64,000 bases of DNA, taken from Hungateiclostridiaceae bacterium UBA1305. GTDB lineage: Bacteria > Bacillota > Clostridia > Acetivibrionales > DTU013. Both the position numbers and the translations under genes were made by a program. Below the pieces are notes generated by a model. The model was not told where the DNA came from, did not search any database, and saw nothing but the letters and a program-made list of their open reading frames with translations. The DNA is taken from positions 8,432-72,431 of the forward strand of contig DBTX01000021.1 of the NCBI GenBank assembly GCA_002307275.1, written 5' to 3'. This document shows positions 259 through 57,221 of the stretch, in pieces. Each line of letters begins with the position of its first letter. Within the stretch, counting starts at the first letter, position 1.

Positions 259-1341
259 TCAGCTGTTTTTAACTTCCTCGACGATGAGTCTGCCCATTTC
301 CCTGGTTCCTACCGCCTGACCCCCGGCAGATACAATGTCGCCGGTTCTGAAGCCCTTCTCCAGTACCCGCTTGACTGCATTTTCAATCAGTTCGGCAGAG
401 GCAGCCTGACCGAGTGAATATCTTAACATCATCGCTGTTGACAGGATCGTCGCGATGGGATTGGCTTTATCCTGCCCCGCTATATCCGGCGCAGACCCGT
501 GAATCGGTTCATAGAGGCCAAGAGTCCCGCTTCCAAGGCTTGCTGAAGGGAGCATGCCTATAGAGCCCGTTATCATGGAGGCTTCGTCCGATAAAATGTC
601 TCCGAACAGATTGGAAGTGACTATAATATCAAACTGCCGTGGATTTCTGATCAGCTGCATTGCAGCATTATCCACATACATGTGGTTCAGACGGATGTCC
701 GGATATTCCTTTGAGACCTTTATGACAACCTCTCTCCACAGCTTCGAGCTTTCAAGCACATTTGCCTTGTCTACCGAGGTAACGAGGCCGCTGCGCCTGC
801 CAGCCGCTTCAAACGCCAATCTGGCTATGCGCTCCACTTCACCGACGCTGTACCTCTCGGTATCATAAGCGGCTTCCCCGGCAGTCCCCGCACCAGTTCT
901 GCCCCTCTCGCCGAAATAGATTCCGCCCGTCAGTTCACGAAATACAAGAATATCGATATTATCGCCTATTATTTCCGATTTCAGCGGAGAAGCATCCCTG
1001 AGTGCCTGGTAGATGACCGCCGGCCTGAGATTTGCATAAAGCTCCAGTCCAGCCCTGATGCCAAGCAGCCCGGATTCGGGAGTCTTTCCTCCCGGCAGGC
1101 CTTCCCACTTCGGACCGCCGACTGCTCCCAGCAGCACCGCATCGCTTGATTTGGCCATCTGCAGTGTGGCCTGCGGCAGAGGTTCTCCACATGCATCGAT
1201 GGCGCATCCGCCCATCAGCTCTTCATGATAATCGAACCCGAAACCATTTTTTTCGCCGACCGCATTCAAAACTGCAATCGCCTGATCCACCACTTCGGGG
1301 CCGATTCCGTCGCCCTTTAAAACAGTTATTTTATATTTCAT
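259..1341 (-). CDS. leuB: 3-isopropylmalate dehydrogenase
   Basis: 360-aa ORF with N-terminus [17 protein letters not shown] and the [27 protein letters not shown] motif of the isopropylmalate/isocitrate dehydrogenase family. RBS AGGGGGA lies upstream. It sits adjacent to leuD and leuC. Confidence 0.95.
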
Positions 1342-1354
1342 TATTAAAATCCCC

Positions 1355-1849
1355 CTATCTTCCTGCCTGTTTCCGGAGGTAACCTATAAGACCGTCCGCT
1401 GCAATGAGCTCCTGCATGAATTCCGGAAACGGGACTCCCTGATAGGTGACATTCCTGGTTAAATTGTTTATGATGCCCGTGTCAAAATCGATCTCCAGCC
1501 TGTCGCCTTCGGATATGTCGGCAGAGGCCTCCGGACACTCGATAATGGGCAGTCCGGTATTGATGGCATTCCGGTAAAAAATTCTCGCAAAAGTCTCCGC
1601 GATGATGCAGGAAATGCCCGAATACTTGATCGCTATCGGAGCATGCTCCCTGGAAGAGCCGCAGCCGAAATTCCTGCCCCCTACCATAATGTCTCCCTTT
1701 TCAACCCTTCCGACAAAGCTTGCATCAAGATCCTCCATACAATGTGATGCCAGTTCCGCCGGATTCGAAGTATTCAGATACCTGGCAGGTATAATAACAT
1801 CCGTATCCACGTTATTTCCATATTTAATGACTTTCCCCTGTGTTTTCAT
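1355..1849 (-). CDS. leuD: 3-isopropylmalate dehydratase small subunit
   Basis: 164-aa ORF with [12 protein letters not shown], typical of the LeuD/aconitase swivel domain. RBS AGGAGG is 7 nt upstream of the ATG. Confidence 0.95.
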
Positions 1850-1919
1850 CTATAATACCTCCTATAGTTTACACGATCCGATTATTTAGCTTTTTTTCAA
1901 TGCCGCGCAATCCCATTCG

Positions 1920-2107
1920 GGCTATTGCTCCTCCGTGGATGCGATCCTGCCGGTTATAGTGCTTCCGTTGATGCACTCCTGTCAGGTACAGGTGATAGTG
2001 CTTCCGATGCTGCACTCCTGTCAGGTACCGGTGATAGTGCTTCCGATGCTGCATTCCTTCAAGTATCGGTTATAGCTCCTCCGGTGATGCGATTCTGCCG
2101 GCGACAG
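1920..2107. repeat. Tandem array of about 39 bp: four degenerate copies of the leuC 3' end plus the gene's own terminus
   Basis: Hand-aligned units are 1920-1951, 1952-1990, 1991-2029 and 2030-2067, plus the genuine leuC end from 2068. Units 2 and 3 are identical at 35 of 39 positions. Unit 1920-1951 matches the leuC end (2068-2099) at 27 of 32 positions. Confidence 0.85.
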
Positions 2108-3353
2108 CGGATGCTGCTGCAATTGCAGGACTTGCAAGGTAAACTTCACTTTCCGGATGGCCCATTCTGCCGATGAAATTCCTGTTTGTCGTAGCCACAG
2201 CTCTTTCACCCTTTGCGAGTATGCCCATATGACCGCCGAGGCAGGGACCGCAGGTCGGTGTACTTACCGCAGCGCCGGCATCGATAAATATGTCAAAGAG
2301 CCCCTCATGCATTGACTGCTGCCATATTTTCTGCGTTGCGGGAATAATGATACACCTTACATCCGGATGAACCTTGCGCCCCTTGAGTATCTGTGCGGCC
2401 ATACGCATATCTTCCATCCTGCCGTTCGTGCAGGAACCGATGATCACCTGATCGATTTTTATGTTCCCAACTTTGTCGATCGTCCTCGCCTTGTCGGGAA
2501 GGGGCGGGAATGCCACAGTAGGCTTGATATCCTCAAGATTGATTACATATTCCCCACTATATACGGCATCCGTATCCGCGGTAAACACTTCGTGTGGCTT
2601 TCTGGAATGCTCCCTGACATATACCAGAGTCTGTTCATCCACTTCGAAAATTCCGTTCTTTGCTCCGGCTTCAATCGCCATGTTCGCCATGGAGAACCTG
2701 TCGTCCATGGAAAGATTTTTGAGACCATCGCCCGTAAATTCCATCGATTTATACAATGCGCCATCCACACCAATCATTCCGATGATATGCAGGATGACAT
2801 CCTTGCCGCTGACCCACTTGCCTGGTTTGCCCCTGAGTTCGAACCTGATGGCCTCGGGCACCTTGAACCAGGCTTCTCCTGTTGCCATCCCAGCCGCCAT
2901 GTCAGTGCTCCCGATCCCTGTGGAGAAAGCGCCAAGTGCGCCGTAGGTGCAGGTATGCGAATCCGCTCCGATGACCACATCACCCGGTACGACAAGCCCT
3001 TTTTCCGGCAGCAGCGCATGTTCAACACCCATTTGCCCGATTTCGAAGTAATTTACAATACCCATCTCCCGGGCAAATTCCTTTATAAATTTCACCTGCT
3101 CCGCAGATTTGATATCCTTGTTCGGAGTAAAATGATCAGGCACTATGGCAATTTTATTTTTATCAAATACTTGATTCACACCGATTTTACGAAATTCCTT
3201 CACCGCTACGGGCGTGGTGATATCGTTTCCAAGTACCATATCGAGCCTGGCCTTTATAAGCTGGCCGGCTTCCACCCTGTCAAGACCCGCATGGGCTGCA
3301 AGGATTTTCTGAGTCATCGTCATGCCTTTTCCGCTTGAAAATTGATTTGTCAT
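2070..3353 (-). CDS. leuC: 3-isopropylmalate dehydratase large subunit
   Basis: 427-aa ORF with aconitase-family Fe-S ligand regions ([29 protein letters not shown]). RBS GGGAGG is 7 nt upstream of the ATG at 3353. Confidence 0.95.
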
Positions 3354-3637: not shown

Positions 3638-4522
3638 TTATACGGATTTTTTTCTGTATTGAAGCGGTGTCACATGAGCATATTTTTTAAACATCTCATT
3701 GAAACGCTGCTGATTTGAAAATCCAACGCTGAGTGCTATATCGCTGATTTTCAAGCCTGTGTCGGCCAGCAGCTCCTTCGCCCTGTCGATGCGCACCTTC
3801 AAAAGGAAATTGATCGGGCTCATTCCCGTCTCTTCCTTGAATGCCCTTATAAAATAGCTGGGACTGAGAAATACGAATTTAGAAATATCCCCAAGTGAAA
3901 TGTCGCGTTCGAAATTGTTATGGATGAAGTTGATGGATATGTTGATAAGCTCACGAAGCTTGGGGCTCTTGGTCTTGATGCTGTTTTCCCACTCCATTTT
4001 GAGCGCACGTGAAAGCAGTACAAAAAGTTCGAGTACCAGCAGATAATTCAGGAATTCGCTGCCGGGTTCGCTATTCTCACGCTCTTTGAGAATCCTGTTC
4101 ATCAGCACGATAATTTCATTTTTCTGGCTGACCTTCAAGGTGATATAAGCCCCTGTCTCCCGGCTGGTAACGAAATTCAGAAAGTCCTCCAGCGGAATTT
4201 CAGAATATTCCCCATTGATCTTGTTTTCAAATTTAAAATTCAGAACGATGAATTCACAGCCATTTTCCGACTTCACGATGAATTTGTGGTACTGCATGGG
4301 CTTAATGATGACAATATCATTCGGGCCAAGAGACACAGGCTGCCCGGAAATTTCAAATACCGCATAGCCTTTCTTCATGTAAACCATCTCATAATTCTCA
4401 TGACGGTTGGGTTCCATGGACCAGGAGATATCCTGGATCCGCTCGATTGTCTTGACAATGACCGGAAGAAAGTTGGAGGAATTCAACACTCCTTCCCACG
4501 CCTTCGGCAGCAGCTTATCCAT
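3638..4522 (-). CDS. AraC/XylS-family transcriptional regulator with an N-terminal cupin-like sensor domain
   Basis: 294-aa ORF. The C-terminal double HTH (ISLGDISKFVFLSPSYFIRAFKEETGMSPINFL ... ISDIALSVGFSNQQRFNEMFKKYAHVTPLQYRK) is the AraC signature. Confidence 0.85.
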   Translation of the reverse strand: MDKLLPKAWEGVLNSSNFLPVIVKTIERIQDISWSMEPNRHENYEMVYMKKGYAVFEISGQPVSLGPNDIVIIKPMQYHKFIVKSENGCEFIVLNFKFENKINGEYSEIPLEDFLNFVTSRETGAYITLKVSQKNEIIVLMNRILKERENSEPGSEFLNYLLVLELFVLLSRALKMEWENSIKTKSPKLRELINISINFIHNNFERDISLGDISKFVFLSPSYFIRAFKEETGMSPINFLLKVRIDRAKELLADTGLKISDIALSVGFSNQQRFNEMFKKYAHVTPLQYRKKSV

Positions 4523-4699
4523 GAAATCACCCTTTCTGCAAGAACTGTCTCAAGCAAATTATACTCCAAATGCTTACATTTGTCACGCAGTGAATGCCCC
4601 CGTACCCCCGGTGTGAAAAGAATAACGGGAATAAATATTGCAGTATTTACAATAATAATATACAATATTTTTATACAATATTTTTCTGAGGTGAATGAT

Positions 4700-4972
4700 A
4701 TGCCCACTAAAGTAAAAAACATTACATTCTCCCTTCCAACGGAGCTTGTCGATAAATTGAAAGAATATGCAAAAGACCAGCGCATTCCGTCTTTAAATGC
4801 TGGAGTCAAAGAAGCTCTGGAGGAATATGTACTAAAAATCAGCAAGGAAAAATTAAGAAGTGAAATGGTACACGCCTCAAAGGATGTATTGTTTCTGGAA
4901 GATTTAAAGGAGAGTATGAAATCATTTGAATCCTCTGATAATGAGATTTATAAGGGGGAGCCCGAATGGTAA
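4700..4972 (+). CDS. Type II antitoxin (small RHH/MazE-like partner of the downstream PemK/MazF toxin)
   Basis: The ATG at 4700 is preceded by GAGGTGA. The product is 90 aa and its stop overlaps the toxin start by 7 nt. The long upstream extension of track ORF 4286..4972 runs antisense to the AraC gene and is discarded. Confidence 0.7.
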   Translation: MPTKVKNITFSLPTELVDKLKEYAKDQRIPSLNAGVKEALEEYVLKISKEKLRSEMVHASKDVLFLEDLKESMKSFESSDNEIYKGEPEW

Positions 4973-5313
4973 ATTATCAATGGAACATTTTCCGTGCCAG
5001 CCTTGATCCTGTCAAGGGCTCTGAGCAATCCGGCACCAGACCTGTTTTGATCATATCGGCAGAAGAGGCTAATGAATCGCTTCCAATCGTTACGGTTATT
5101 TCATTGACATCGGCTAAGCCAGGCAGAAAGGTATACTTAATTGAATCTTTATTAAAAGCCGAAGATACAGGCCTACCCAGAGATTCAATCGCAATGGCGC
5201 ACCAGATCAGAGCTATATCAAAAGAACGACTTTGCGGAATGTGCGGGCAAATTACCTCGGAAGAAGTGAAGGTTGATATAAAAAGAGCCATAAAATTATA
5301 TCTGGATATGTAA
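4966..5313 (+). CDS. mazF: PemK/MazF-family endoribonuclease toxin
   Basis: 115-aa ORF. IFRASLDPVKGSEQSGTRPVLIIS and AMAHQIRAISKERL match the MazF/PemK core. RBS AAGGGGGAG lies upstream. Confidence 0.88.
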   Translation: MVNYQWNIFRASLDPVKGSEQSGTRPVLIISAEEANESLPIVTVISLTSAKPGRKVYLIESLLKAEDTGLPRDSIAMAHQIRAISKERLCGMCGQITSEEVKVDIKRAIKLYLDM

Positions 5314-11356: not shown

Positions 11357-11450
11357 ATGCAGCCTCCGTTGTACACTGTATCAATAGAGAAAACAATCAT
11401 CCGGCATTAACCCAGCGCTAACTCATTTATGATTCATCACTATAAGCACT

Positions 11451-11530
11451 GGCTATTATTTCAGTCAGCTATTACTGCAGTCAGTTGTTACTGCTGTCAG
11501 TGTTATTACAATCAGCTGTTACTGCTGAAC
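11451..11530. repeat. Five tandem units of about 16 bp echoing the stop region of the pilin-like gene
   Basis: The units are ggctattatttcagtca, gctattactgcagtca, gttgttactgctgtca, gtgttattacaatca and gctgttactgctgaac. The last is the gene's own end, with TAA being the complement of 11519-11521. Confidence 0.8.
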
Positions 11531-11935
11531 AAAACTGATAGCTGTAACAATGCCGTTATCATTCGTTGTGAGCGTTGATTTAAAAGTTCCTACAGGGTTA
11601 ATGTATTCACCACTGCCAGAATCGGTAATATCATATTTATTATCTGAATCGTAGTCCACTTTTGCTGCTACCATAATAGTTCTTACACTAACATCCAATA
11701 CGTCGGTCTCGCCATACATTCTCACTGCATTTACAACACTGCTGCCGGATACTTCGGTTCCGTTGTAGGCATCATATTTCTTGGAAGTGATCACCTGGCT
11801 GATTCCCTTGATATCGCTCTCAGAGTTTTTGGTAATGTCCGCACCCTGTCCAAACAGGGCAATCGCGATGGCTATTGCCGCAACAGTAATCAGTACGGCG
11901 GCTCCGAGCTTGATGATTGTTGTAACATTGTTCAT
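11519..11935 (-). CDS. Putative filament subunit / pilin-like protein (non-canonical)
   Basis: 138-aa ORF. It has a short polar N-terminus followed by a hydrophobic helix (MNNVTTIIKLGAAVLITVAAIAIAIALFGQG) and then a beta-rich Ser/Thr/Asp domain. It lies directly downstream of the platform gene, and the RBS is GGGGGATAGG. Confidence 0.55.
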   Translation of the reverse strand: MNNVTTIIKLGAAVLITVAAIAIAIALFGQGADITKNSESDIKGISQVITSKKYDAYNGTEVSGSSVVNAVRMYGETDVLDVSVRTIMVAAKVDYDSDNKYDITDSGSGEYINPVGTFKSTLTTNDNGIVTAISFVQQ

Positions 11936-14029: not shown

Positions 14030-16053
14030 CTCCCTGAACTCTCTTCCAAGTTCCCGAATTCCTTGTCCAGGAAGGCGGCAAACAGTTTTTGATCCTCCCT
14101 CAGCATGGCTTTCGCCATCGCCTTTCTATTACTATCGCTTATCCTGTTCTTCACGACATAGGCGTTTTCAATCAGATCATATTCTATGATGTTGCGGTAA
14201 GTGTATGAATGTCCGCCAAGCATTCTTTCATAATAGCGGTACTGAGCTTCCTTGATCAGTCTGTCAAGGTTACTCGGGTCGTTGTCGTTGCTGCTATTAC
14301 TGCTACTGCTGTTACTACTGTTGCTGTTATTTCTGTTGTTGCTACTGTTGCTGTTATTGCTGCTGTTATTGCTGCTGTTACTGCTGTTGCTGTTATTGCT
14401 GCTGTTGCTGCTGTTGCTGCTGTTGCTGTTATTGCTGTTGCTGTTACTGCTGCAGTTGCTGTTACTGCTATTGCCGCTATTTTCATTACTGTCATTATTT
14501 GTTTTATAACTGTTCCTGCTGCAATCGTCTATATCGAAATCACCGGGTTCAAAGGGAATACATTCTGTTATCCTCTCAATATAACGCTTGCCGGATATAT
14601 CTTTTTCCATGTGTATATCAAAATTCAACACACTTATGATTTGCTCCTCTGCGATACGTTCATTATTAAATACATTGGTTTTAAGCAGAGAATTACGCAG
14701 GGACATTACCAAATCGGGAAACTTCTTTGCATGATGAGAAAACAGGGTAAACAGGCTTGCAACCTGTGCCGTTTGTATCATATATGCCGCTACCGGATCT
14801 GTGGCTACCTCGCCCACGATCGTTACGACGCCGTCGGTTTTTTTCAGTACGTCAAGCCCGGCCTGTCCGGTTATCGCGTCTGTTTCCTGGATGGTAACAA
14901 TGTTTCTGTTGGGATAGCTTTTGCGCACATGAAGTTCAAAAGCCATTTCCAGGATCCGGAGGGTATACGGCGTATAAATATGTTCTATCATGGCGCGCAG
15001 AAGTGTAGTTTTCCCTGATCCCTGGGCGCCCGTGACACTTGTGTTCATGCTTCCTTTCACGAGAAATCCGATCAGTTCAATAACAAGATCACAGTTCTTA
15101 TCTTTGATAAGTCCCGGAAGTGATATGTCCGGAAGATCGAATTTACGGATGAAAAAGCACCATGTTTCACAGAAGTCCGGCCTCAATACCACGACCCTTG
15201 AACCGTCCTTCAGCTTATTTACTTTGAAGCCGTCCACTTTGGAAAGCTGACCAGGATAGCCATATTTATACACGTTTTGGCATACCCTTTGAAGTTCGTC
15301 ATAGCTGCCAAGGGAAAGGAATTTTAAATGAATGCTTTTCCCTTGAAAATACAGCCAGATACTTTCATAGGAACGAACCGCTCCGGTATTGGCCACAGAT
15401 TCATACTCACTTTTGTGTTCCTGGACAAACGATTCCGGCAAACCGTTCACACCGCAGCTTAACCCATCGACCTGCATATCCATAATGTCGTCGATGACAT
15501 TATAGCCTTTATAGAGTGAATACACTCTTTGAACAATGATGTTATATTTGTCTTCATAAGTTATTACCGGTGATTCCCGTTTATAGATACGGTTGATGTC
15601 ATCCATGTCTATAAAGAAATACTCCACATCCTCAGTTTTTCTAAGCAAATCAAGATCATATTTCCTGATCAGGACAGAAAGTGCCTTATAGCCGTATTCT
15701 TTCTTGTACACATGCAGAAGGATGTCGAATTTATCCTGCACCGATAAATGCTCTACCCTTTCAAATGGAATAATATTATTGATTTTAATTGAAGTGATAT
15801 CGTAATATTGCTGCAGCAGTTCCTTGATAAACTCCTTGACAAATTCTTTATCCGGTTTGGAGCCATATATGCAGTCGTTCAGAGCAGCCTGCAGCCGTGA
15901 CTTTTTATTTTGCTTTCTTTCAAGCTCAACGCTTGTTATACCCAAGTCAAACAGCTTCAATTTCATCAGTTCATCAACTGCCTGCTGAACAAATTCCTTC
16001 ATTTGCGGTATATTGTAATTTAGCATTTTGCCGGTGTCTATCGTTAATTCCAT
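14020..16053 (-). CDS. Long CpaF/TadA/VirB11-type secretion ATPase with an Asn/Ser-rich insert
   Basis: The start is set at MELTIDTGK, with GGAGGG upstream. It has Walker A GAQGSGKTT, IVGEVATD (Walker B/Asp-box region) and FSHHA (His box). An N-terminal extension of about 330 aa precedes the core. The C-terminal region holds a run of about 75 residues of N/S. Confidence 0.85.
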   Translation of the reverse strand: MELTIDTGKMLNYNIPQMKEFVQQAVDELMKLKLFDLGITSVELERKQNKKSRLQAALNDCIYGSKPDKEFVKEFIKELLQQYYDITSIKINNIIPFERVEHLSVQDKFDILLHVYKKEYGYKALSVLIRKYDLDLLRKTEDVEYFFIDMDDINRIYKRESPVITYEDKYNIIVQRVYSLYKGYNVIDDIMDMQVDGLSCGVNGLPESFVQEHKSEYESVANTGAVRSYESIWLYFQGKSIHLKFLSLGSYDELQRVCQNVYKYGYPGQLSKVDGFKVNKLKDGSRVVVLRPDFCETWCFFIRKFDLPDISLPGLIKDKNCDLVIELIGFLVKGSMNTSVTGAQGSGKTTLLRAMIEHIYTPYTLRILEMAFELHVRKSYPNRNIVTIQETDAITGQAGLDVLKKTDGVVTIVGEVATDPVAAYMIQTAQVASLFTLFSHHAKKFPDLVMSLRNSLLKTNVFNNERIAEEQIISVLNFDIHMEKDISGKRYIERITECIPFEPGDFDIDDCSRNSYKTNNDSNENSGNSSNSNCSSNSNSNNSNSSNSSNSSNNSNSSNSSNNSSNNSNSSNNRNNSNSSNSSSSNSSNDNDPSNLDRLIKEAQYRYYERMLGGHSYTYRNIIEYDLIENAYVVKNRISDSNRKAMAKAMLREDQKLFAAFLDKEFGNLEESSGRCG
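14278..14505. repeat. Imperfect trinucleotide (GCT/GTT/ACT)n tract encoding poly-Asn/Ser
   Basis: The plus strand reads ...gttgctgctattactgctactgctgttactactgttgctgtt... for about 230 nt. Three additional track ORFs in other frames and strands (14209..15018, 14252..14509, 14256..14495) also run open across it. Confidence 0.9.
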
Positions 16054-20881: not shown

Positions 20882-21148
20882 CCAAATCCCTCACAAATCA
20901 TGGAATATTGTCATATTTTCGGCTTTTGTAGCTGTATAACAATAATGGGTATTTCTATTGTCCTTTAACGCGTCCTATATTATCACAGTCTTACAAAATT
21001 TACCATTATATTTTGCAGTTTTTTATTTATTATGCAGGTAATAGATAGGCAAGAGGCTTATCAGCACTGTAAGAGTGAATTTTCTACTGCAGAAAATAAA
21101 AGAATAAGACGGGAAATAATGCAGAAAGATGATTCATTTTAAACTGAT

Positions 21149-21422
21149 GGGTCACTTCTGATTGAGGTCCGGTGTATATTGGATTGCTCCTGATTGAGGT
21201 CCGGTGTATTGGATTACTCCTGATTAATATCCGGTGTATTGGATTACTCCTGATTAATATCCGGTGTATTGGATTACTCTTGATTAATATCCGGTGTATT
21301 GGATTACTCCTGATTAATATCCGGTGTATTGGATTACTCTTGATTGATGCCCGGTGTATTGGGTCACTCCTGATTGATACCCGGTGTATTGGGTCACTCC
21401 TGATTGAAGTCCGGTATATATT
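21149..21422. repeat. Nine phased units of about 30 bp: eight echoes plus the genuine 3' end of the PflX-like gene
   Basis: Units start at 21149, 21181, 21211, 21241, 21271, 21301, 21331, 21361 and 21391. Three central units are identical (ggattactcctgattaatatccggtgtatt). The last unit contains the gene's stop, TGA being the complement of 21394-21396. Confidence 0.95.
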
Positions 21423-22497
21423 GCTCGGAAGCAGATTCCCTGTCCTGTACAAAGCCATTAAGACCAAGCTTTGCGAATTTATAGGTCACCTTTTCATACT
21501 CGTACCTGGTAAGTCCCCTGCCAAGGACAGGATGCCCACAGGCCTTGTAGCAGGGAGTATACTGGCTCATGAGGCTTACATTTATATCTTTGGGAAGGTT
21601 TTCAGATATCCATTCAAGGACGCGCAGCGTTTCTGCCGTATGACCCGGCAGAACAAGATGCCTGATGATCATGCCGCGCGTCATTAGCCCGCTTTCGTCA
21701 AATTCGGACATGCCGACCTGCCTGTGCATTTCGAGTATCGCTTTGGAAGCTTTGTCAAAATAGTCTTTTGCTCCTGAATACTCCTTTGACACTTCCGGGC
21801 TGATGTATTTGAGATCCGGCAGGTAAATGTCGATGGATCCATCCAGCATTTTTAATGAATTCAGGCTATCATAACCATTTGTGTTATAAACGACGGGGAT
21901 ATCGAGAGGCCTGGGTTGAGTAACGAAATTTGGGACAGGAGCAGCAGGACAGTTGGATTGTCCGCCTCTTTGGACAGAAACAGGAGGGACGAAGGTAGCG
22001 GGAAAGGGAGGGACAGAGGGACAGGTCCTCTGTACCGGAACAAAAGCAAGTGGAACAGAGGACTTGTCCCTCCATCCCTCATACTCGGGCCTTTCCCTCC
22101 GTCCCTCATGTCCCTCCGTCTCCCATGCCGCTCTCGCCAGATCCAGCGCTTCCTTGATGGCAGGCACAAAATGGGAGGGTGTTACAAGGTTTATATTATG
22201 CGCGCCTTTATCCTGCAAAGACAGGAATATTCCTGCAAGCTCCATTATGGACATTTCTTTGCCGATGCCGCCGTGACTGATTTCATGATTCTGACAGAAG
22301 ATGCACTTTAAATTGCAGCCGGAAAAGAACACTGTGCCCGAACCGCGTGTTCCGCTGATACAAGGTTCCTCCCACATGTGCAGAGAAGCTCTTGCAACCA
22401 CTGGCTTTTCTCCCATACCGCAGAACCCTTTGCTCTTTTCCCTGTCGATATCACATTCTCTGGGACAAATATTGCATTTCATACCGATATTCCTCAA
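21394..22497 (-). CDS. PflX-like radical-SAM protein (pyruvate formate-lyase activase homologue, COG1313-type)
   Basis: 367-aa ORF. CNICPRECDIDR...FCG, ASLHMWEEPCISG and FFSGCNLKCIFCQN (CxxxCxxC) are typical of the family. An atypical insert of about 73 aa lies at residues 125-197. Confidence 0.85.
   Translation of the reverse strand: MRNIGMKCNICPRECDIDREKSKGFCGMGEKPVVARASLHMWEEPCISGTRGSGTVFFSGCNLKCIFCQNHEISHGGIGKEMSIMELAGIFLSLQDKGAHNINLVTPSHFVPAIKEALDLARAAWETEGHEGRRERPEYEGWRDKSSVPLAFVPVQRTCPSVPPFPATFVPPVSVQRGGQSNCPAAPVPNFVTQPRPLDIPVVYNTNGYDSLNSLKMLDGSIDIYLPDLKYISPEVSKEYSGAKDYFDKASKAILEMHRQVGMSEFDESGLMTRGMIIRHLVLPGHTAETLRVLEWISENLPKDINVSLMSQYTPCYKACGHPVLGRGLTRYEYEKVTYKFAKLGLNGFVQDRESASEQYIPDFNQE
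21907..22125. repeat. G+C-rich imperfect palindrome inserted in frame in the PflX-like gene
   Basis: On the coding strand, GAGGGA-type motifs repeat in one arm and TCCCTC-type motifs in the other. For example, GGGAGGGACAGAGGGACAGGTCCTCTGT faces ACAGAGGACTTGTCCCTCCATCCCTC. Besides the gene frame, four other track ORFs cross parts of it. Confidence 0.75.
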
Positions 22498-31637: not shown

Positions 31638-31877
31638 TCACTTCATATTCATTTTAATAATTTCATCCAGCGATATTTTATCGGTTTCGGGCTTAATTCT
31701 GGCTGCTTCTTCATTTTCACGCTGTATCTCCAGGAAAACTTCCTTTCTGTGTATGGATACGCTTCTGGGAGCATTAATTCCGATACGTACCTGATCCCCC
31801 TGGATATCAAGCACAGTGATCTCTATATCATTATTTATGACGATCGTCTGATCCTTTTTCCTTGTCAGTACCAGCAT
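31638..31877 (-). CDS. csrA: Carbon storage regulator CsrA
   Basis: MLVLTRKKDQTIVINNDIEITVLDIQGDQVRIGINAPRSVSIHRKEV is the CsrA core. The start is placed at this Met rather than the longer track ORF. Confidence 0.9.
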   Translation of the reverse strand: MLVLTRKKDQTIVINNDIEITVLDIQGDQVRIGINAPRSVSIHRKEVFLEIQRENEEAARIKPETDKISLDEIIKMNMK

Positions 31878-32331
31878 CGGCGCCGCCCTCCTGTCTGCGG
31901 ATTTCATCCAATATATAGTGTCTCACAGTGTACTTGTCGGTGTCAAGGATTATTTGGGCGCCCTTATTCGTGCTGCAGTTGATGATCAAAGGTGCTTTCA
32001 GGTTCATGCTGATTCTTGTCAGATCATCCGGTACAACAACGATGGAATATACCGCTACATCATCTTCCTTTGCAATACAAAGTTCCCGGGCTGCTTCATC
32101 GGGCAGCTCAAAGTCATAGTCCGCTACAATCATAAAAGGATTGGCAATTGCAAATGCAATCTGTGGTTCATTGACACATTGCAGCCATCCGAACGGAGAG
32201 GTCTTATCTTCATTCCCAATGAGTACGAATTTATTAAGCTGTTCAAAACCCGGCAGTCCTTCATCAAATTTCAAAACACTCTCCTCAGCTATCCTGATTT
32301 CCCCGAAGTGCCTTGTTTGTAATACTCTCAT
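31831..32331 (-). CDS. fliW: Flagellar assembly factor FliW
   Basis: MRVLQTRHFGEIRIAEESVLKFDEGLPGFEQLNKFVLI...FGWLQCV is FliW-typical. The ATG lies 5 nt after GGAGGA. The 3' end overlaps csrA. Confidence 0.9.
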   Translation of the reverse strand: MRVLQTRHFGEIRIAEESVLKFDEGLPGFEQLNKFVLIGNEDKTSPFGWLQCVNEPQIAFAIANPFMIVADYDFELPDEAARELCIAKEDDVAVYSIVVVPDDLTRISMNLKAPLIINCSTNKGAQIILDTDKYTVRHYILDEIRRQEGGADAGTDKEKGSDDRHK

Positions 32332-32396
32332 AATATCCTCCACTCAGCAGTTACTGTAAAATTCACTTCATTATTTTGACTGTATTGCAACGAACT

Positions 32397-52630: not shown

Positions 52631-54835
52631 TCAGGAAAATTTTTTTAGCTTAACAGAGAGTCCCGAATTTCTTAATGTTTCCCTTTGATTTTCGACCATG
52701 CTTTGTAAAGAGGCTTCCTCTCCAACCAGCACTACCATCTTTTTTGCCCTTGTCACGGCAGTATACAGCAAATTCCTGGTCATAAGAACCTGCGGACCCG
52801 GGAAGATCGGAATAACAACTACAGGGAATTCCGAACCCTGACTTTTGTGTATGGTCACTGCAAACGCCGGTTCAATTTCATCGAGTATGCTAAAATCGTA
52901 TTCTACCAGCCTCTCATCATCGAAAAGCACTTCCATTGTCTGAGCTTCTTCATTTATTTTACTGATCATGCCTACATCTCCGTTGAATACGCCCGTTCCA
53001 TCCATCAGCTTGTTCCCCGGCTTCTCCCACCTGAGGGAATAATTATTCCGGACCTGCATGACCTTGTCTCCTTCCCTGAAAATATAGTCTCTGGAAACCT
53101 TTTCGGCTTTGTTCCGATCAGCCGGGTTGAGTACCTTTTGCAATTCCAGGTTCAGATTAATAACTCCCGCCGGACTTTTTTTCGTTGGAGAAAGTACCTG
53201 AATGTCTTTCATCGGTTCAAAGCCATAGGTCTCCGGAAGCCTCCGGCTGCAAAGATCAACCAAAGTACGGGTGATTGAATCCAACCCATTCCGTGCAACA
53301 AAGAAAAAGTCCTTGTCCCGTGCATTCAGGACCGGCACTTCGCCTCTATTGATCCTGTGTGCATTGACAATTATCATGCTCTCGCCCGCCTGCCTGAATA
53401 TCTCGGTCAGCCTGACAGTCTTTATCATATTGCAGCCGATAATATCCTCAAGGACACACCCAGCGCCGACGGAAGGCAGTTGATCGGCATCTCCGGCAAG
53501 AATCAGCCGTGAACCTGCCGCAACCGCTTTAAGCAGATGATTCATCAAAAGGATATCCACCATCGACATTTCATCAATAATGATCACATCCGCTTCAATC
53601 GGATTTGTATCATTACGGAGGAACAACAACTCCTTATCATCCCCGGCATAGCCTATTTCCAGCAGGCGATGGATCGTACGCGCTTCAAATCCGGTAGCCT
53701 CCGACATTCTTTTGGCAGCGCGTCCTGTCGGCGCGGCAAGCGTGACCTGATGCCCGTCACCGACAAGGAGCCTGATGATACTCTTGATTATGGTAGTCTT
53801 TCCGGTTCCCGGCCCGCCGGTTATTACAAGTACTCCACTGGTCATGGCTTCGCGTATTGCCATCCGCTGCATCTCCGCCAGCTCTATACCTTCTTCTCTC
53901 TGAAATCTCTCAAGCTTGTCCTCGAAATCATCCAGCGCCAGATTGAATTGTGTCTGGGAAAGCTCCAGCAGCCTTTTACATACACTTTGTTCCGCGTTGT
54001 GAAAGGAGGCTAAATAAATATGGTTCGAGTCTTCACCTTTCTCAGTCACAATAGCCTTATCAAATATCAGTGTTATCAAGGCATCTTCAATGTCCAGCGC
54101 TTCCGTGTCCAACAGGCTTGCGGCATTCTCCCTGAGAACGTTCTCCTGCATATAGGTGTGCCCGTTTGAAGCCGCATTTGATAGAAGGTACTTTATTCCG
54201 CTTTTAATACGAAATCTGGAAGCCGGGTCAATTCCAAGCTTCATTGCAATTCTATCAGCTGTCTTGAAGCCTATGCCGAAAACATCTTCACACAGTCTGT
54301 AAGGATTTTCCCTTAAGATTGCTACTGCATTTTCTGCATAAGCCTTGTAAATCTTTATACAAATCGACGGAGATACTCCATATTCCTGCAGAAATATGAC
54401 AACATCCTGAAGGCCCTTTTGCTCATTTAGTGCCTGTCCTATCGCTGAAGCCTTTTCTAGGCTAATCCCTTTTATTTCCGACAATCTCAGTGGATTGGCA
54501 TTGATAATTTCCAATGTCGCAACACCGAATTTTCCCGTAATTTTTGCTGCTGTAGCCGGGCCAACGCCTTTTACTATTCCGGAGGCAAGGTATTTTTCAA
54601 TAGCATCGACAGTCCTTGGCATAACTTTTTCATATAACTCCACCTTAAACTGTTCCCCGTAATCAGGATGGCTTACCCACTTGCCACTGGCCTTTATCGT
54701 TTCGCCCATATTGATAAATGGCATATATCCGACTGCAGTGACACTGTCATTGCCGCACCGTACGTCGCAGACAGTATAACCGTTCGCTTCATTTGTGTAT
54801 ATAATGTCCTCGACTGTACCCTCTATTTCAATCAA
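52631..54835 (-). CDS. recD2: RecD2-type SF1B ATP-dependent DNA helicase
   Basis: 734-aa ORF. VITGGPGTGKTT (Walker A), IIIDEMSMVD (Walker B), AGDADQLPSVGAG and AVTIHKSQGSEF are present, with N-terminal HhH-like repeats. Confidence 0.9.
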   Translation of the reverse strand: MIEIEGTVEDIIYTNEANGYTVCDVRCGNDSVTAVGYMPFINMGETIKASGKWVSHPDYGEQFKVELYEKVMPRTVDAIEKYLASGIVKGVGPATAAKITGKFGVATLEIINANPLRLSEIKGISLEKASAIGQALNEQKGLQDVVIFLQEYGVSPSICIKIYKAYAENAVAILRENPYRLCEDVFGIGFKTADRIAMKLGIDPASRFRIKSGIKYLLSNAASNGHTYMQENVLRENAASLLDTEALDIEDALITLIFDKAIVTEKGEDSNHIYLASFHNAEQSVCKRLLELSQTQFNLALDDFEDKLERFQREEGIELAEMQRMAIREAMTSGVLVITGGPGTGKTTIIKSIIRLLVGDGHQVTLAAPTGRAAKRMSEATGFEARTIHRLLEIGYAGDDKELLFLRNDTNPIEADVIIIDEMSMVDILLMNHLLKAVAAGSRLILAGDADQLPSVGAGCVLEDIIGCNMIKTVRLTEIFRQAGESMIIVNAHRINRGEVPVLNARDKDFFFVARNGLDSITRTLVDLCSRRLPETYGFEPMKDIQVLSPTKKSPAGVINLNLELQKVLNPADRNKAEKVSRDYIFREGDKVMQVRNNYSLRWEKPGNKLMDGTGVFNGDVGMISKINEEAQTMEVLFDDERLVEYDFSILDEIEPAFAVTIHKSQGSEFPVVVIPIFPGPQVLMTRNLLYTAVTRAKKMVVLVGEEASLQSMVENQRETLRNSGLSVKLKKFS

Positions 54836-54903: not shown

Positions 54904-55407
54904 TTATTTTGGAGAGTGTGAAAAGATAGTGAAATCTTCAAAAATGTGCTCCCTATCCTCAAACTTCAATACCTCTACATTTGAAAAATCTTTTTGCAGC
55001 TTTTCCAGCAGCAGGAAAGTATTATCAGAGGAATCCATATCAATGATGACCAGACTATTGTCCGACATAACCCTGGATGCGAAATCATTCTTAACAGCAG
55101 TTCTGACAATATATTCGATCTGCTCCTCCGCATCCCTGACAAGCAGTATCATACGCACACCAGAACGCATGGGCAAGTAGTTGACACAGTCAACGACCAG
55201 ACCAGGGCGCATTGGCGAGCAGTTGATACCGTCAACGACCAGCCTAGGAGGTTTTCCCGGACTCCTTCCGAAAAAATGCACCGCAACTGTGCGTCCAAGG
55301 ATAAACAGGCCGTATATAGCCAAAAGACAACCGACCAGCTTGAAAAGTATGTAAATCAAACTCGACCCTCCTTGTAAAATTACTGAGAATATTATATTAT
55401 TCATCAC
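54904..55407 (-). CDS. Hypothetical membrane-anchored protein with an internal 14-aa duplication
   Basis: 167-aa ORF with an N-terminal TM pair (IIFSVILQGG...LVGCLLAIYGLFILG). No family was recognised. Confidence 0.6.
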   Translation of the reverse strand: MMNNIIFSVILQGGSSLIYILFKLVGCLLAIYGLFILGRTVAVHFFGRSPGKPPRLVVDGINCSPMRPGLVVDCVNYLPMRSGVRMILLVRDAEEQIEYIVRTAVKNDFASRVMSDNSLVIIDMDSSDNTFLLLEKLQKDFSNVEVLKFEDREHIFEDFTIFSHSPK

Positions 55408-55550: not shown

Positions 55551-55570
55551 ATATACCAGTTCCTCATTTT

Positions 55571-55730
55571 GAATTGCCATAACTTACTGTTTCCTGCTAT
55601 TGCTTACCTTTGCCTGCTATTGCTTACCTTTGCCTGCTATTGCTTACCATCACTTGCCATATTTTGCCATTGTCTGTCATTGCTCGCCTTATATTCCCAT
55701 GTCATACCATTGCCTGCCATTTCTTACATT
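55571..55730. repeat. About 16 units with strict 10-bp periodicity (including 3 copies of a 20-bp unit) between the metK stop and its putative terminator
   Basis: In the printed 10-mers: gaattgccat aacttactgt ttcctgctat tgcttacctt tgcctgctat tgcttacctt tgcctgctat tgcttaccat cacttgccat attttgccat tgtctgtcat tgctcgcctt atattcccat gtcataccat tgcctgccat ttcttacatt. The metK stop is the complement of 55724-55726. Confidence 0.85.
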
Positions 55731-56917
55731 CCCTTTGCAGCGTTCTTCAATATTTCAGCCTTGTCGGTGCGTTCCCATGAAAGATCCGTGTCAGTTCTTC
55801 CAAAGTGTCCGTATGCCGCGGTTTGCTTGTATATCGGTCTTCTGAGGTCCAGTTCCTTAATGATGCCTGCCGGTCTGAGGTCAAAATATTTCTGTACGAG
55901 CTTTATCAGCTTTTCTTCAGGCAGCGTACCTGTACCGTAGGTGTCAACAAGTATTGAAACCGGGCTTGCAACACCGATAGCATATGCAAGCTGCACTTCA
56001 CATTTTTTGGCAAGCCCTGCAGCAACCAGGTTTTTGGCAACATATCTTGCAGCATAGGCAGCAGAACGGTCCACCTTGGTCGGGTCCTTGCCTGAGAAAG
56101 CTCCGCCGCCATGTCTCGCGTAACCGCCATACGTATCTACGATAATTTTCCTGCCTGTAAGCCCGGAGTCACCCTGTGGTCCGCCTACTACAAACCTGCC
56201 TGTCGGGTTAATCAGGAACCTTGTGTTTTTATCCAGGAGTCCTGCTGGAATGATCGGCTTAATGACAAGTTCGATCGCATCCCTTTCAATTGTCTCGTGA
56301 GAAACTTCCGGACTGTGCTGTGTGGATATGACAACCGTATCAACCCTCACAGGTTTGTCCCCGTCGTACTCAACAGTGACCTGCGATTTTCCGTCCGGCC
56401 TCAGGTAGTCCAGCGTACCGTCCTTACGAATCTCGGAAAGCTTTTTGACAAGCTTGTGCGCCAGCGATATCGGCATTGGCATCAATTCCGGTGTTTCATC
56501 ACAGGCAAAGCCGAACATCATTCCCTGGTCTCCGGCTCCGATGTCAGCAATCTGAGAATCCGACATGTCGCCGTTCTTTGCTTCAAGAGCCTTGTCAACG
56601 CCCATTGCGATATCCGCAGACTGTTCGTCTATTGAAGTGATTACAGCACAGGTATCCGCGTCAAACCCATATTTTGCCCTGTCGTACCCGATTTCCCTTA
56701 TCGTATTTCTTACGACCTTTGGAATATCAACATAACATTTGGTGGATATCTCGCCCATAACAAGAACCAATCCAGTTGTAACCGCTGTTTCACACGCGAC
56801 TCTTGCATTGGGGTCTTCTGCAAATATTGCGTCCAGGACTGCATCGGATATCTGATCGCACATCTTATCCGGATGCCCCTCTGTTACTGATTCTGAAGTA
56901 AATAATCTCTTTGCCAT
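55724..56917 (-). CDS. metK: S-adenosylmethionine synthetase
   Basis: The start [25 protein letters not shown] follows [21 protein letters not shown] and [19 protein letters not shown] are MetK signatures. Confidence 0.95.
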
Positions 56918-56998: not shown

Positions 56999-57100
56999 CT
57001 TCCTCATCTTTCAGGATGTTACTCCTGCAGGAATTGGCACCGCACCATAGGCCGGTTGCCGGGTTTCATAGGGCTCAGTCCCTCCACCACTCTTGATAAG
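56999..57100 (-). promoter_or_regulatory. SAM-I (S-box) riboswitch aptamer controlling metK
   Basis: The minus strand reads CTTATCAAGAGTGGTGGAGGGACTGAGCCCTATGAAACCCGGCAACCGGCC...GGTGCCAATTCCTGCAGG...GAAAGATGAGGAAG. This matches the S-box consensus blocks. Confidence 0.92.
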
Positions 57101-57221
57101 TATCTATTCAATTTTTATTACTTACCGGTAGCCAAAATAAAATTTTGCAAACCGGCATATTTAAATTAACATAAATTATAAACTGCGTCAAGTATCATTT
57201 GACATCTCTGAAACAAAAACG

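What the first reader, a model, noticed from the sequence alone, without database searches (positions are those of the whole stretch)
1920..2107. Stop-codon echo array 1: leuC 3' end copied four times between leuC and leuD
Seen in the sequence:
- leuC and leuD, which are usually adjacent or overlapping, are separated here by 220 bp.
- The gap is filled by units of about 39 bp (13 codons) at 1920-1951, 1952-1990, 1991-2029 and 2030-2067.
- Two inner units are identical at 35 of 39 positions.
- The outermost unit matches the real leuC terminus (2068-2099) at 27 of 32 positions, including the stop position (TAA becomes TAG).

The same architecture recurs at 11451, 21149 and probably 55571 in this window. 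In each case the gene's own last codons plus stop form the terminal unit of a degenerating tandem array lying just downstream.

Inference: this could reflect a lineage-specific duplication process acting at gene 3' ends. Alternatively the arrays may be selected intercistronic or 3'-UTR RNA elements for stability, processing or decoupling of translation.
Basis: partly seen in the sequence, partly recalled or inferred. Interest (0 to 1): 0.55.

Follow-up and report, generated by a model that had tools for sequence, protein, structure and literature searches.

The report
Tandem copies of leuC's end
The last ~32 bases of the leuC gene, stop codon included, have been copied head-to-tail several times, creating a new 220-base spacer before leuD; this is real and recent but most likely an ordinary, harmless by-product of replication slippage, not a new genetic system.

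Summary
On the minus strand, the whole 220-nt leuC-leuD spacer is built from decayed head-to-tail copies of leuC's last ~32 nt plus stop. It ends in a fossil of the ancestral "…CTA TAG"+Shine-Dalgarno junction, directly before leuD.

- **Significance:** leuC's last 30 nt match their own downstream DNA at z≈11 (0/1000 shuffles).
- **Recency:** the nearest relatives (LeuC 96, 92 and 91% identical) have gaps of only 12-30 nt and no array.
- **Reality:** the array is identical in independent assemblies of the same strain.
- **No sign of selected RNA function:** there is no RNA structure (z +0.2), terminator, promoter or Rfam hit, and the unit is not dispersed elsewhere in the window.
- **Recurrence in the window:** the same architecture is strong after a radical-SAM gene (8 extra 30-nt units, 7 keeping the stop), moderate after a 138-aa gene, and weak after metK.
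- **Background:** about 1.2% of genes in 2 Mb of other Clostridia show a stop-spanning echo, against 0.1% for mid-gene controls. The window is about 5-fold enriched (p≈0.03, post hoc).

Best reading: slippage or unequal-recombination duplications, visible because copies spanning a stop codon leave the gene intact. A 3'-end-directed process is not excluded.

The parts
2070..3353 (-). leuC (3-isopropylmalate dehydratase large subunit), 427 aa, stop TAA at 2072-2070
   Evidence: ORF. Pfam Aconitase on the identical gene. Homologues 96-84% identical, all ending ...[10 protein letters not shown] or similar.
2070..2102 (-). U0: the functional leuC terminus (GCCGGCAGAATCGCATCACCGGAGGAGCTATAA), the first unit of the array
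   Evidence: 88% identical to the ancestral-type terminus of relative L082 and 82% to U4. Encodes the conserved [10 protein letters not shown].
1954..2069 (-). U1-U3: three units of 38-39 nt (2069-2032, 2031-1993, 1992-1954). This is a homogenised subfamily carrying a 7-nt insertion relative to the 32-nt unit. The stop position reads TCA, TCA, TAA.
   Evidence: TRF 39 nt x 2.9, 90% matches. 79-90% identical to each other and 56-64% to the ancestral terminus.
1922..1953 (-). U4: a 32-nt copy of the leuC terminus (CCGGCAGGATCGCATCCACGGAGGAGCAATAG), stop echoed as TAG
   Evidence: 27/32 identical, ungapped, to 2068-2099. 82% identical to U0 and to L082.
1881..1921 (-). U5: a 41-nt stretch, possibly a heavily decayed unit (about 50-57% to the other units). 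Doubtful.
   Evidence: Alignment only. Not significant on its own.
1850..1880 (-). U6 plus the leuD ribosome-binding site. CGGATCGTGTAAACTATAG|GAGGTATTATAG is the fossil of the ancestral leuC end, whose TAG stop overlapped the leuD Shine-Dalgarno (AGGAGG at 1863-1858).
   Evidence: Relative L082 reads ...GGATCGCATCACCAGAGGAACTA TAG gaggtaatatag ATG. The 24 nt before leuD's ATG match 22/24.
1355..1849 (-). leuD (small subunit), 164 aa
   Evidence: ORF. Pfam Aconitase_C.
11451..11527 (-). Array 2: about 16-nt units (CAGCAGTAACAGCTGA-like). It starts with the last codons and TAA of a 138-aa ORF (11519..11935) and sits in a 162-nt gap before the next gene.
   Evidence: TRF 16 nt x 4.1. Sequence. 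Stop-centred echo z=5.1. Identical in a second sample, L144.
21144..21423 (-). Array 3: the last 30 nt of a radical-SAM gene (21394..22482) plus 8 further 30-32-nt units. Seven units keep TGA or TAA at the homologous in-frame position. The distal unit is the one most like the gene's end (27/32).
   Evidence: TRF 30 nt x 8.8, 90%. Unit table. z=13-14. Relatives L003, L086, L090, L092 and L099 have no array here.
55565..55735 (-). Array 4: a 10/20-nt periodic, purine-rich array that begins at the metK stop (metK 55724..56917). Its core is 20 nt x 2.8, perfect (55593-55648).
   Evidence: TRF. Sequence. Stop-centred echo z=3.4. A short-read contig of the same strain breaks inside it.

Best explanation
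**What it is.** The leuC-leuD spacer is a young, locus-specific tandem array of the VNTR type.

**How it arose (inferred from the anatomy).**
1. In the ancestor, leuC's stop codon overlapped leuD's Shine-Dalgarno sequence, and the gap was about 12 nt.
2. Replication slippage or unequal recombination duplicated the last ~32 nt of leuC, stop codon included.
3. Further rounds added copies. A variant with a 7-nt insertion (39 nt) was then amplified in the middle of the array.
4. The older copies decayed.

**Why it survived.** The first copy still ends leuC with a stop codon, and the last copy still carries leuD's ribosome-binding site. The duplications were therefore tolerated, whereas duplications inside genes are removed by selection. 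That selection filter is the likely reason such arrays are seen starting at stop codons.

**What it does.** The array itself probably does nothing useful. Its main effect is to separate leuC termination from leuD initiation by 220 untranslated nucleotides within one transcript.

**Shown versus inferred.** Shown: the anatomy, statistical significance, recency, absence in relatives, and lack of structure or conservation. Inferred: slippage as the mechanism, and neutrality.
For: - **Derived from leuC's own end.** The array is head-to-tail. The 24 nt before leuD's ATG are a fossil of the ancestral leuC-end/SD junction seen in L082.
- **Recent and unconserved.** Relatives with LeuC 96%, 92% and 91% identical have gaps of 12, 30 and 14 nt with no array. 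About 130 further Clostridia loci typically have gaps of 15-30 nt.
- **Expected array anatomy.** Edge units stay ancestral while interior units are homogenised, in both array 1 and array 3. This is what interior unequal exchange produces.
- **Local, not dispersed.** The unit occurs nowhere else in the window.
- **No sign of a functional RNA or signal.** Folding z-scores are +0.23, -0.95 and +1.74. There are no terminators or promoters in the spacer and no Rfam hit.
- **No shared unit design.** Unit lengths differ between arrays (32/39, 16, 30, 10/20 nt), and two are not multiples of 3.
- **Matches a selection filter in other genomes.** In other Clostridia, stop-spanning echoes (score >=26) occur at 20/1687 genes, against 11/1621 at start codons and 2/1647 in mid-gene controls. 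Twelve of 41 intergenic TRF arrays abut a stop codon.
- **Not an artefact.** The sequence is identical in independent assemblies of the same strain.
Against: - **The window is enriched.** Three or four stop-abutting arrays in 64 kb compare with about 0.9 per 100 kb in 1.37 Mb of other loci (Poisson p about 0.02). Strong echoes are 3/54 vs 20/1687 (p=0.03). A simple filter does not explain why this lineage has more, so an elevated slippage rate must be assumed.
- **Older units look too diverged.** U1-U3 are 56-64% identical to the ancestral terminus, although the array post-dates a split at only 22% third-position divergence. This needs fast decay or an early origin.
- **No polymorphism seen.** All recovered copies come from the same strain, so copy-number variation was not observed.
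- **Crude gene calls.** Genes in the background sets were called as longest non-overlapping ORFs.
- **Function not excluded.** Protein binding, or an effect on leuD translation, could not be tested.
Confidence: 0.62

Rival explanations
1. The arrays are selected RNA elements in the intercistronic region or 3' UTR. They could act as ribosome stand-by or decoupling spacers, or as multi-site binding platforms for an RNA-binding protein such as CsrA, since GGA/AGGAG-like motifs recur in every unit of arrays 1 and 3.
For: - GGA occurs 12 times in the 220-nt spacer against about 5 expected, and 11 times in array 3 against 5.6 expected.
- csrA and fliW are encoded in the window.
- A 61-codon ORF in leuC's frame runs from 15 nt after the leuC stop to 19 nt before leuD's ATG. 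It could in principle carry ribosomes across the spacer.
- All four arrays are A-rich on the sense strand.
Against: - There is no RNA structure beyond shuffles in any array.
- Arrays 2 and 4 lack GGA enrichment.
- The GGA motifs are simply inherited from the coding sequence that was copied (…CCGGAGGAG…, …CAGGAGTGA).
- The arrays are absent from the closest relatives, so there is no evidence of conservation.
- The ORF's ATG lacks a properly spaced SD, and an open frame of that length in a repeat is not unlikely.
- There is no Rfam family.
Confidence: 0.15
2. A lineage-specific, active repeat-forming process is seeded at gene 3' ends or stop codons. It would be comparable to the unexplained tandem-repeat formation in Borg elements, or linked to events at the end of translated regions such as uncoupled RNA polymerase, R-loops or template switching.
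For: - Four arrays in 54 genes all start at a stop codon.
- The window is about 5-fold enriched over roughly 2 Mb of other Clostridia.
- The close relative L086 has its own stop-overlapping array at a different gene, AraC.
- All arrays are A-rich on the sense strand.
- The exact 9-mer ATGAATCAT occurs 3 times in the window, twice within about 20 nt after arrays 2 and 3.
Against: - The enrichment is modest (p 0.02-0.03) and post hoc.
- The same architecture occurs at low frequency across many unrelated Clostridia, and at start codons too.
- Unit lengths and sequences share nothing.
- Repeat-unit boundaries cannot be tied to the stop codon, because a tandem array can be phased at any rotation.
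- No candidate enzyme lies nearby. The window encodes ordinary housekeeping, flagellar and glycosylation genes.
- Only 64 kb of this genome was available.
Confidence: 0.13
3. The inner 39-nt units are a small foreign or mobile insertion (MITE-like, or left by a site-specific element that targets gene 3' ends). On this view the two leuC-end copies (U0 and U4) are its target-site duplication.
For: The two best copies of the leuC terminus (U0, U4; 27/32) flank three units that are less similar to it.
Against: - The inner units align with the leuC terminus along their whole length. They share the GCA.CA.CGGA.G.ACTAT.A core and the CCGG…CAGGA tail, differing by a 7-nt insertion.
- They occur nowhere else in the window.
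- There are no inverted termini and no integrase or transposase nearby.
- Array 3 shows the same edge/interior pattern with obviously homologous units.
Confidence: 0.04
4. The array is an assembly artefact: mis-assembled or collapsed reads.
For: The sequence comes from a metagenome contig. One short-read contig of the same strain ends inside array 4.
Against: Arrays 1 and 2 are base-for-base identical in contigs assembled from two other sequencing runs, SRR404117 and SRR5325151. The units are diverged, so they assemble unambiguously.
Confidence: 0.02

Closest known systems
Bacterial intergenic VNTRs / tandem duplications formed by slipped-strand mispairing
   Same: Head-to-tail copies of a locus-specific unit. 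Present or absent between close relatives. Interior homogenisation with older edge units. No conserved structure.
   Different: The first unit here is the functional end of a housekeeping gene, stop codon included. The array created an operon spacer de novo. Copy-number polymorphism within the species was not observed, because only one strain was recovered.
Borg (Methanoperedens extrachromosomal element) tandem repeats (PMC9879509)
   Same: [quoted passage not shown] It also reports A-enrichment, flanking partial repeats, recent independent origin, and intergenic unit lengths that are often not multiples of three.
   Different: Borg repeats are perfect and pervasive, on an archaeal extrachromosomal element. 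Here the units are mostly imperfect (56-90% identical), the host is a bacterial chromosome (dnaB, rplI, ftsH and metK are nearby), and density is only a few per 64 kb.
MIRUs of Mycobacterium tuberculosis (intercistronic tandem repeats within operons; recalled from memory, Supply et al. 1997)
   Same: Tandem units of 40-100 nt sit between genes of an operon, next to the upstream stop and the downstream start.
   Different: MIRUs are one dispersed family present at many loci, with small ORFs overlapping the flanking stop and start codons. Here each array has its own sequence, derived from the local gene end, and no overlapping stop/start design.
TAACTGA heptamer repeats of Beggiatoaceae, cyanobacteria and Bacteroidetes (PMC4679880)
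   Same: Intergenic direct repeats that contain stop codons and in some cases overlap the stop codon of the upstream gene. Array 2's unit (CAGTAACAGCTGA) has a similar TAA…TGA content.
   Different: TAACTGA is one fixed heptamer repeated genome-wide, mostly just upstream of start codons. The arrays here are locus-specific and longer.
Constant-length (52 nt or 20-21 nt) intergenic tandem repeats of Bacillus/Paenibacillus (PMC8161180)
   Same: Firmicutes intergenic tandem repeats with variable sequence. Array 4's 20-nt unit falls in the 20-21-nt class, as do many 18-25-nt background arrays.
   Different: The leuC array has 32/39-nt units and arrays 2 and 3 have 16 and 30 nt, so there is no constant length. 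That work did not report derivation from gene ends.

Membership tests
VNTR-type tandem duplication array (slippage / unequal exchange) | Contiguous head-to-tail copies of one unit | tested here: met
   TRF 39 nt x 2.9. Full decomposition into 6-7 contiguous units.
VNTR-type tandem duplication array (slippage / unequal exchange) | Unit derived from the local sequence and not dispersed elsewhere | tested here: met
   Units align to leuC's own terminus at z=11. The unit occurs only at this locus in the window. The rest of the genome was not available.
VNTR-type tandem duplication array (slippage / unequal exchange) | Presence/absence or copy-number differences between close relatives | tested here: met
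   Absent in relatives with LeuC 96, 92 and 91% identical, whose gaps are 12-30 nt. Within-strain copy number is identical in three datasets, so polymorphism within the species remains untested.
MIRU-like intercistronic repeat | Same unit family dispersed at many loci | tested here: not met
   Each of the four arrays has an unrelated unit. The leuC unit is not found elsewhere.
MIRU-like intercistronic repeat | Small ORFs in the units whose start and stop overlap the flanking genes' stop and start (translational coupling) | tested here: not met
   The only candidate ORF (2054..1869) starts 15 nt after the leuC stop without a properly spaced SD, and ends 19 nt before leuD's ATG.
Borg-type tandem repeats | Perfect (SNP-free) units | tested here: not met
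   Units are 56-90% identical in array 1 and about 90% in array 3. Only the 20-nt x 2.8 core of array 4 is perfect.
Borg-type tandem repeats | First unit within a gene end, with locus-unique units of recent origin | tested here: met
   and absence in relatives.
Borg-type tandem repeats | Pervasive across the replicon and A-enriched | tested here: inconclusive
   A is 33-42% on the sense strand. Density is 4 intergenic arrays per 64 kb, against about 3 per 100 kb in other Clostridia. The whole genome was not available.
Structured cis-regulatory RNA / known RNA family | Match to a curated family, or folding energy and covariation beyond chance | tested here: not met
   No Rfam hit at any array. 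Folding z-scores are +0.23, -0.95 and +1.74. No homologous arrays exist in relatives to test covariation.
CsrA-binding multi-site RNA (CsrB/RsmZ-like sponge) | Many GGA motifs presented in hairpin loops, with conservation and CsrA binding | tested here: inconclusive
   GGA is about 2-fold enriched in arrays 1 and 3 but not in arrays 2 and 4. There are no stable hairpins. Binding is not testable with these tools.
Diversity-generating retroelement (variable region at the gene 3' end plus a template repeat) | Two non-tandem copies differing at adenines, with a nearby reverse transcriptase | tested here: not met
   The copies are tandem and more than two. The differences are not adenine-specific. 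No reverse transcriptase is among the window's annotated ORFs.

The most novel reading that the evidence does not exclude
This Acetivibrionales-like bacterium and its close relatives may carry an elevated, possibly directed tandem-repeat-forming activity that seeds arrays at the ends of translated regions. That would be a bacterial-chromosome counterpart of the unexplained Borg tandem-repeat process. It would continually create new 3' UTRs and operon spacers out of coding sequence.
Probability: 0.12. Interest if true: 0.65.

Novelty: new member of a known kind. Interest (0 to 1): 0.3.

Why it matters
This is a clean, datable example of non-coding DNA being born from coding sequence. A 12-nt overlapping stop/Shine-Dalgarno junction became a 220-nt operon spacer, through repeated duplication of a housekeeping gene's last codons. 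The ancestral junction is still visible as a fossil next to leuD.

It also shows that stop-codon-spanning tandem arrays are a recurrent, low-frequency feature of Clostridia genomes, at about 1% of genes and roughly ten-fold above mid-gene controls. That is relevant to annotating 3' ends, to short-read assembly breaks, and to how intergenic regions and C-terminal extensions originate. If the local enrichment proved genome-wide, it would point to a lineage with unusual repeat dynamics.

Tried and rejected
- **Exact-protein look-ups with the wrong start.** The radical-SAM and metK ORFs, taken from the first TTG, were not on record. Repeating with the likely ATG starts returned only contigs of the same strain, so no copy-number variation could be assessed.
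- **DNA pattern scan of metagenome contigs.** The leuD-start/SD pattern found nothing. The source contig is apparently not in that collection.
- **Echo in related leuC-leuD spacers.** By eye I thought many related spacers (29-106 nt) also echoed the leuC end. Shuffle tests supported only L091 (an exact 10-nt GGCAGGATCG right after the stop, p=0.003). The claim was dropped for the others.
- **Leu-operon junctions as a hot spot.** About 5 of the 13 top hits in the GTDB genome-representative loci are leuA, leuC or leuD, against about 2 expected. That is not convincing, because every locus was fetched through leuC.
- **Selected RNA structure.** Rejected on folding z-scores.
- **Known RNA family.** No hit at any array.
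- **Terminator or promoter in the arrays.** None in the leuC-leuD spacer. Only weak promoter-like matches appear at arrays 2 and 4.
- **Peptide-coding array.** The minus-strand 61-aa ORF and the plus-strand 83-aa ORF have no ribosome-binding site and no support.
- **DGR, MITE or integrative-element remnant.** Rejected on anatomy.
- **Alternative genetic code or readthrough.** Other genes in the window end normally on TGA, TAA or TAG, and only array 3 has in-frame stops in each unit.

Full report
**1. What is there**

The window's first 3.4 kb carries leuC (2070..3353), leuD (1355..1849) and leuB (259..1341), all on the minus strand. leuC ends ...[13 protein letters not shown] at 2072-2070 and leuD starts at 1849, so the gap is 220 nt.

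TRF reports a 39-nt x 2.9 array at 1952-2065 with 90% matches.
- 1952-1990 vs 1991-2029 is 35/39 identical.
- 1920-1951 vs the leuC terminus 2068-2099 is 27/32 identical, with TAA echoed as TAG.

**2. Is it more than chance?**

I took the last 30 nt of each of 54 crudely called genes and aligned them locally to their own 300-nt downstream region.
- leuC scores 38. Its best score against the downstream regions of the other 53 genes is 20.
- Against 1000 dinucleotide shuffles of its own downstream region the mean is 14.0 and the sd 2.2, and none reach 38.

**3. Full anatomy**

Read on the minus strand and phased on the stop codon, the whole spacer decomposes into contiguous units:

| Unit | Coordinates | Sequence or note | Triplet at the stop position |
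|---|---|---|---|
| U0 | 2102-2070 | GCCGGCAGAATCGCATCACCGGAGGAGCTATAA, the real leuC end | TAA |
| U1 | 2069-2032 | 39-nt subfamily | TCA |
| U2 | 2031-1993 | 39-nt subfamily | TCA |
| U3 | 1992-1954 | 39-nt subfamily | TAA |
| U4 | 1953-1922 | CCGGCAGGATCGCATCCACGGAGGAGCAATAG | TAG |
| U5 | 1921-1881 | doubtful, about 50-57% identical to the others | TAA(T) |
| U6 | 1880-1862 | CGGATCGTGTAAACTATAG | TAG |

U6 is followed by GAGGTATTATAG and leuD's ATG.

- U1-U3 are 38-39 nt. They carry a 7-nt insertion relative to the 32-nt unit, and are 79-90% identical to each other.
- U4 is 82% identical to U0.
- The array is therefore not a monotonic gradient of decay. It has conserved edges and a homogenised interior.

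**4. Comparison with relatives**

The same strain is 100% identical over several kb in contigs assembled from two other sequencing runs. L001 comes from SRR404117; L143 and L144 come from SRR5325151. Arrays 1 and 2 are therefore not assembly artefacts. One short-read contig breaks inside the perfect core of array 4.

The closest different organisms were found through LeuC homologues:

| Locus | LeuC identity | Junction | Gap |
|---|---|---|---|
| L082 | 96% aa (91% nt; third positions 78%) | ...GGATCGCATCACCAGAGGAACTA TAG gaggtaatatag ATG | 12 nt; the stop overlaps leuD's SD |
| L083 | 92% | no array | 30 nt |
| L086 | 91% | LeuC is 8 aa longer | 14 nt |

The window's last 24 nt before leuD's ATG (AAACTATAGGAGGTATTATAGATG) match that ancestral leuC-end/SD junction at 22/24 positions. 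The ancestral stop therefore sat next to leuD, and everything between it and today's stop consists of inserted copies.

About 130 further Clostridia loci mostly have gaps of 12-30 nt (genome representatives; metagenome relatives fetched through the neighbouring AraC gene). Only L091 shows a significant small echo, an exact GGCAGGATCG right after the stop (p=0.003). An unrelated 19-nt x 5.6 array fills the same gap in an Anaerocolumna MAG (L050).

**5. The other arrays in the window**

- **Array 3 (21144-21423).** It follows a radical-SAM gene (21394..22482). The gene's last 30 nt are followed by eight more 30-32-nt units. Seven keep TGA or TAA at the homologous in-frame position. Units U3-U6 are nearly identical to each other. 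The distal unit is the one most like the gene end, at 27/32. The echo reaches z=13-14. Five relatives have a 212-333-nt intergenic region here with no array.
- **Array 2 (11451-11527).** About 16-nt units follow a 138-aa ORF. The echo is moderate, with p=0.015-0.09 and a stop-centred z of 5.1.
- **Array 4 (55565-55735).** A 10/20-nt periodic array follows metK. It is not significant with the last-30-nt query. A query spanning the stop gives z=3.4.

With the stop-centred query, the four flagged genes are 4 of the top 5 of 54 genes. The gene functions are unrelated: leuC, an unknown protein, a radical-SAM enzyme and metK.

**6. Is it functional?**

Nothing points to a selected element.
- RNA folding of arrays 1, 3 and 4 is no better than shuffles, with z=+0.23, -0.95 and +1.74.
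- Rfam finds only the SAM riboswitch upstream of metK.
- No terminator-like or promoter-like site lies in the leuC-leuD spacer on the gene strand, and none of note lies at the other arrays.
- The unit is not dispersed in the window.
- Unit lengths differ between arrays (32/39, 16, 30, 10/20 nt).
- GGA motifs are about 2-fold enriched in arrays 1 and 3 only, and are inherited from the copied codons. csrA and fliW are present in the window, so CsrA binding cannot be excluded, but nothing supports it.
- A 61-codon ORF in leuC's frame spans most of the spacer, but it lacks a properly spaced SD.

**7. How general is the pattern?**

TRF arrays (score >=50) in 1.37 Mb of other Clostridia leuC loci:
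- 41 arrays are intergenic.
- 12 of them lie within -25..+15 nt of a stop codon (0.9 per 100 kb), against about 6 at start codons.
- The window has 3 by the same rule, or 4 counting array 4's degenerate part. The Poisson p is about 0.02.

Stop-centred echo scores of 26 or more:

| Set | Genes with echo | Fraction |
|---|---|---|
| Background, stop codons | 20/1687 | 1.2% |
| Background, start codons | 11/1621 | 0.7% |
| Background, mid-gene controls | 2/1647 | 0.1% |
| Window, stop codons | 3/54 | 5.6% (Fisher p=0.03) |

Stop-codon echoes are thus a general, low-frequency feature of these genomes. This is the pattern expected if tandem duplications arise anywhere and those that disrupt reading frames are purged. 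The window, and perhaps its close clade, is a few-fold enriched: L086 has a 22-nt x 2.7 array over the AraC stop. That evidence is modest, post hoc, and rests on crude gene calls.

**8. Mechanism**

Most likely (about 0.6): slipped-strand or unequal-exchange duplication of a ~32-nt segment ending at leuC's stop. Later interior amplification of a 39-nt variant followed, with decay of the older copies. The copies were tolerated because U0 preserves LeuC's conserved C-terminus and stop, and U6 preserves leuD's RBS.

Shown: derivation from leuC, recency, edge/interior structure, and lack of structure or conservation. Inferred: the slippage mechanism and neutrality.

The expected consequence is loss of the stop/SD overlap, so leuD now depends on independent initiation at its retained AGGAGG.

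The rivals are a selected spacer or protein-binding RNA (about 0.15), a lineage-specific 3'-end-directed repeat-forming process (about 0.13), a mobile-element remnant (about 0.04) and an assembly artefact (about 0.02).

**9. Relation to known things**

- It behaves like an intergenic VNTR.
- The 'first unit inside the gene end' architecture has been described for Borg tandem repeats, which are also locus-unique, recent and A-rich. Borg repeats, however, are perfect and pervasive (PMC9879509).
- TAACTGA repeats can overlap upstream stop codons (PMC4679880).
- Firmicutes have intergenic repeats of constant 52 or 20-21 nt (PMC8161180). Only array 4 fits that class.
- MIRUs (recalled from memory) are intercistronic, but they are a dispersed family with coupled small ORFs. 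That is not met here.

**10. Verdict**

The lineage-specific duplication reading is right. The idea of a special 3'-end process is unproven, and the RNA-element idea is unsupported. It is a new example of a known kind of event, of modest interest.

Noticed in passing
window 21980-22126 (inside the radical-SAM gene 21394..22482): The gene carries a stretch of about 80 low-complexity codons (…EGHEGRRERPEYEGWRDK…PSVPPFPATFVPP…). It consists of imperfect inverted repeats (GAGGGACAGAGGGACAGG / CCTGTCCCTCC arms, 86-92% complementary) and 17-27-nt direct repeats. It looks like an in-frame palindromic insertion. In relative L086 the homologous region is called as two shorter genes.
   Followed up: partly
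window 11429-11437 and 21129-21137 (minus strand): The exact 9-mer ATGAATCAT occurs only three times in the window. Two copies lie 7-14 nt beyond the last units of arrays 2 and 3, and the third is inside recD2 at 53537-53545. A looser AAATGA(G/A) also follows array 4. This may be chance (about 0.04 after correcting for pairs).
   Followed up: partly
window 14301-14472: An in-gene tandem array (9/39-nt periods) encodes an Asn/Ser-rich low-complexity linker (…SNSSNSSNNSNSSN…) near the C-terminus of a 685-aa T2SSE-like ATPase. Its DNA motif (GCAGTAACAGCAGCA) resembles array 2's unit.
   Followed up: partly
window 55159-55242: A 42-nt x 2.0 tandem duplication (83% matches) lies inside a 167-aa ORF of unknown function (54904..55407), just downstream of array 4.
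   Followed up: no
window 57001-57102 (minus strand): A SAM riboswitch (RF00162, 83.7 bits) lies upstream of metK. metK therefore has a riboswitch leader at its 5' end and a tandem array after its stop.
   Followed up: yes
L050:5780-5886: An Anaerocolumna MAG has an unrelated 19-nt x 5.6 array (AGATAATAAGGCAGAAATA, 95% matches) in its 180-nt leuC-leuD gap. In other loci, arrays overlap the leuD stop (L048, L043), the leuC stop (L080), or the stop of the gene upstream of leuC (L053, L031).
   Followed up: partly
L086:9772-9830: The 91%-LeuC relative has its own 22-nt x 2.7 array starting at the stop codon of the AraC-family gene upstream of leuC. This site has no array in the window, which suggests such arrays turn over between loci in this clade.
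   Followed up: partly
L086:11284-11308: In this relative, LeuC is 8 residues longer (…SPDELSELNATSF) than in all other close homologues. This shows that the leuC 3' end and stop position are labile in the clade.
   Followed up: no
window 31638-32343 (minus strand): fliW and an adjacent csrA lie within a large flagellar and flagellin-glycosylation region (about 23.8-51 kb). This is relevant only because GGA-rich arrays could in principle bind CsrA.
   Followed up: partly
window 4483-5313: A PemK-family toxin gene with an adjacent small partner gene lies between the AraC regulator and the PC4-like gene. It is present in the strain's other contigs, but relative L086 lacks it.
   Followed up: no
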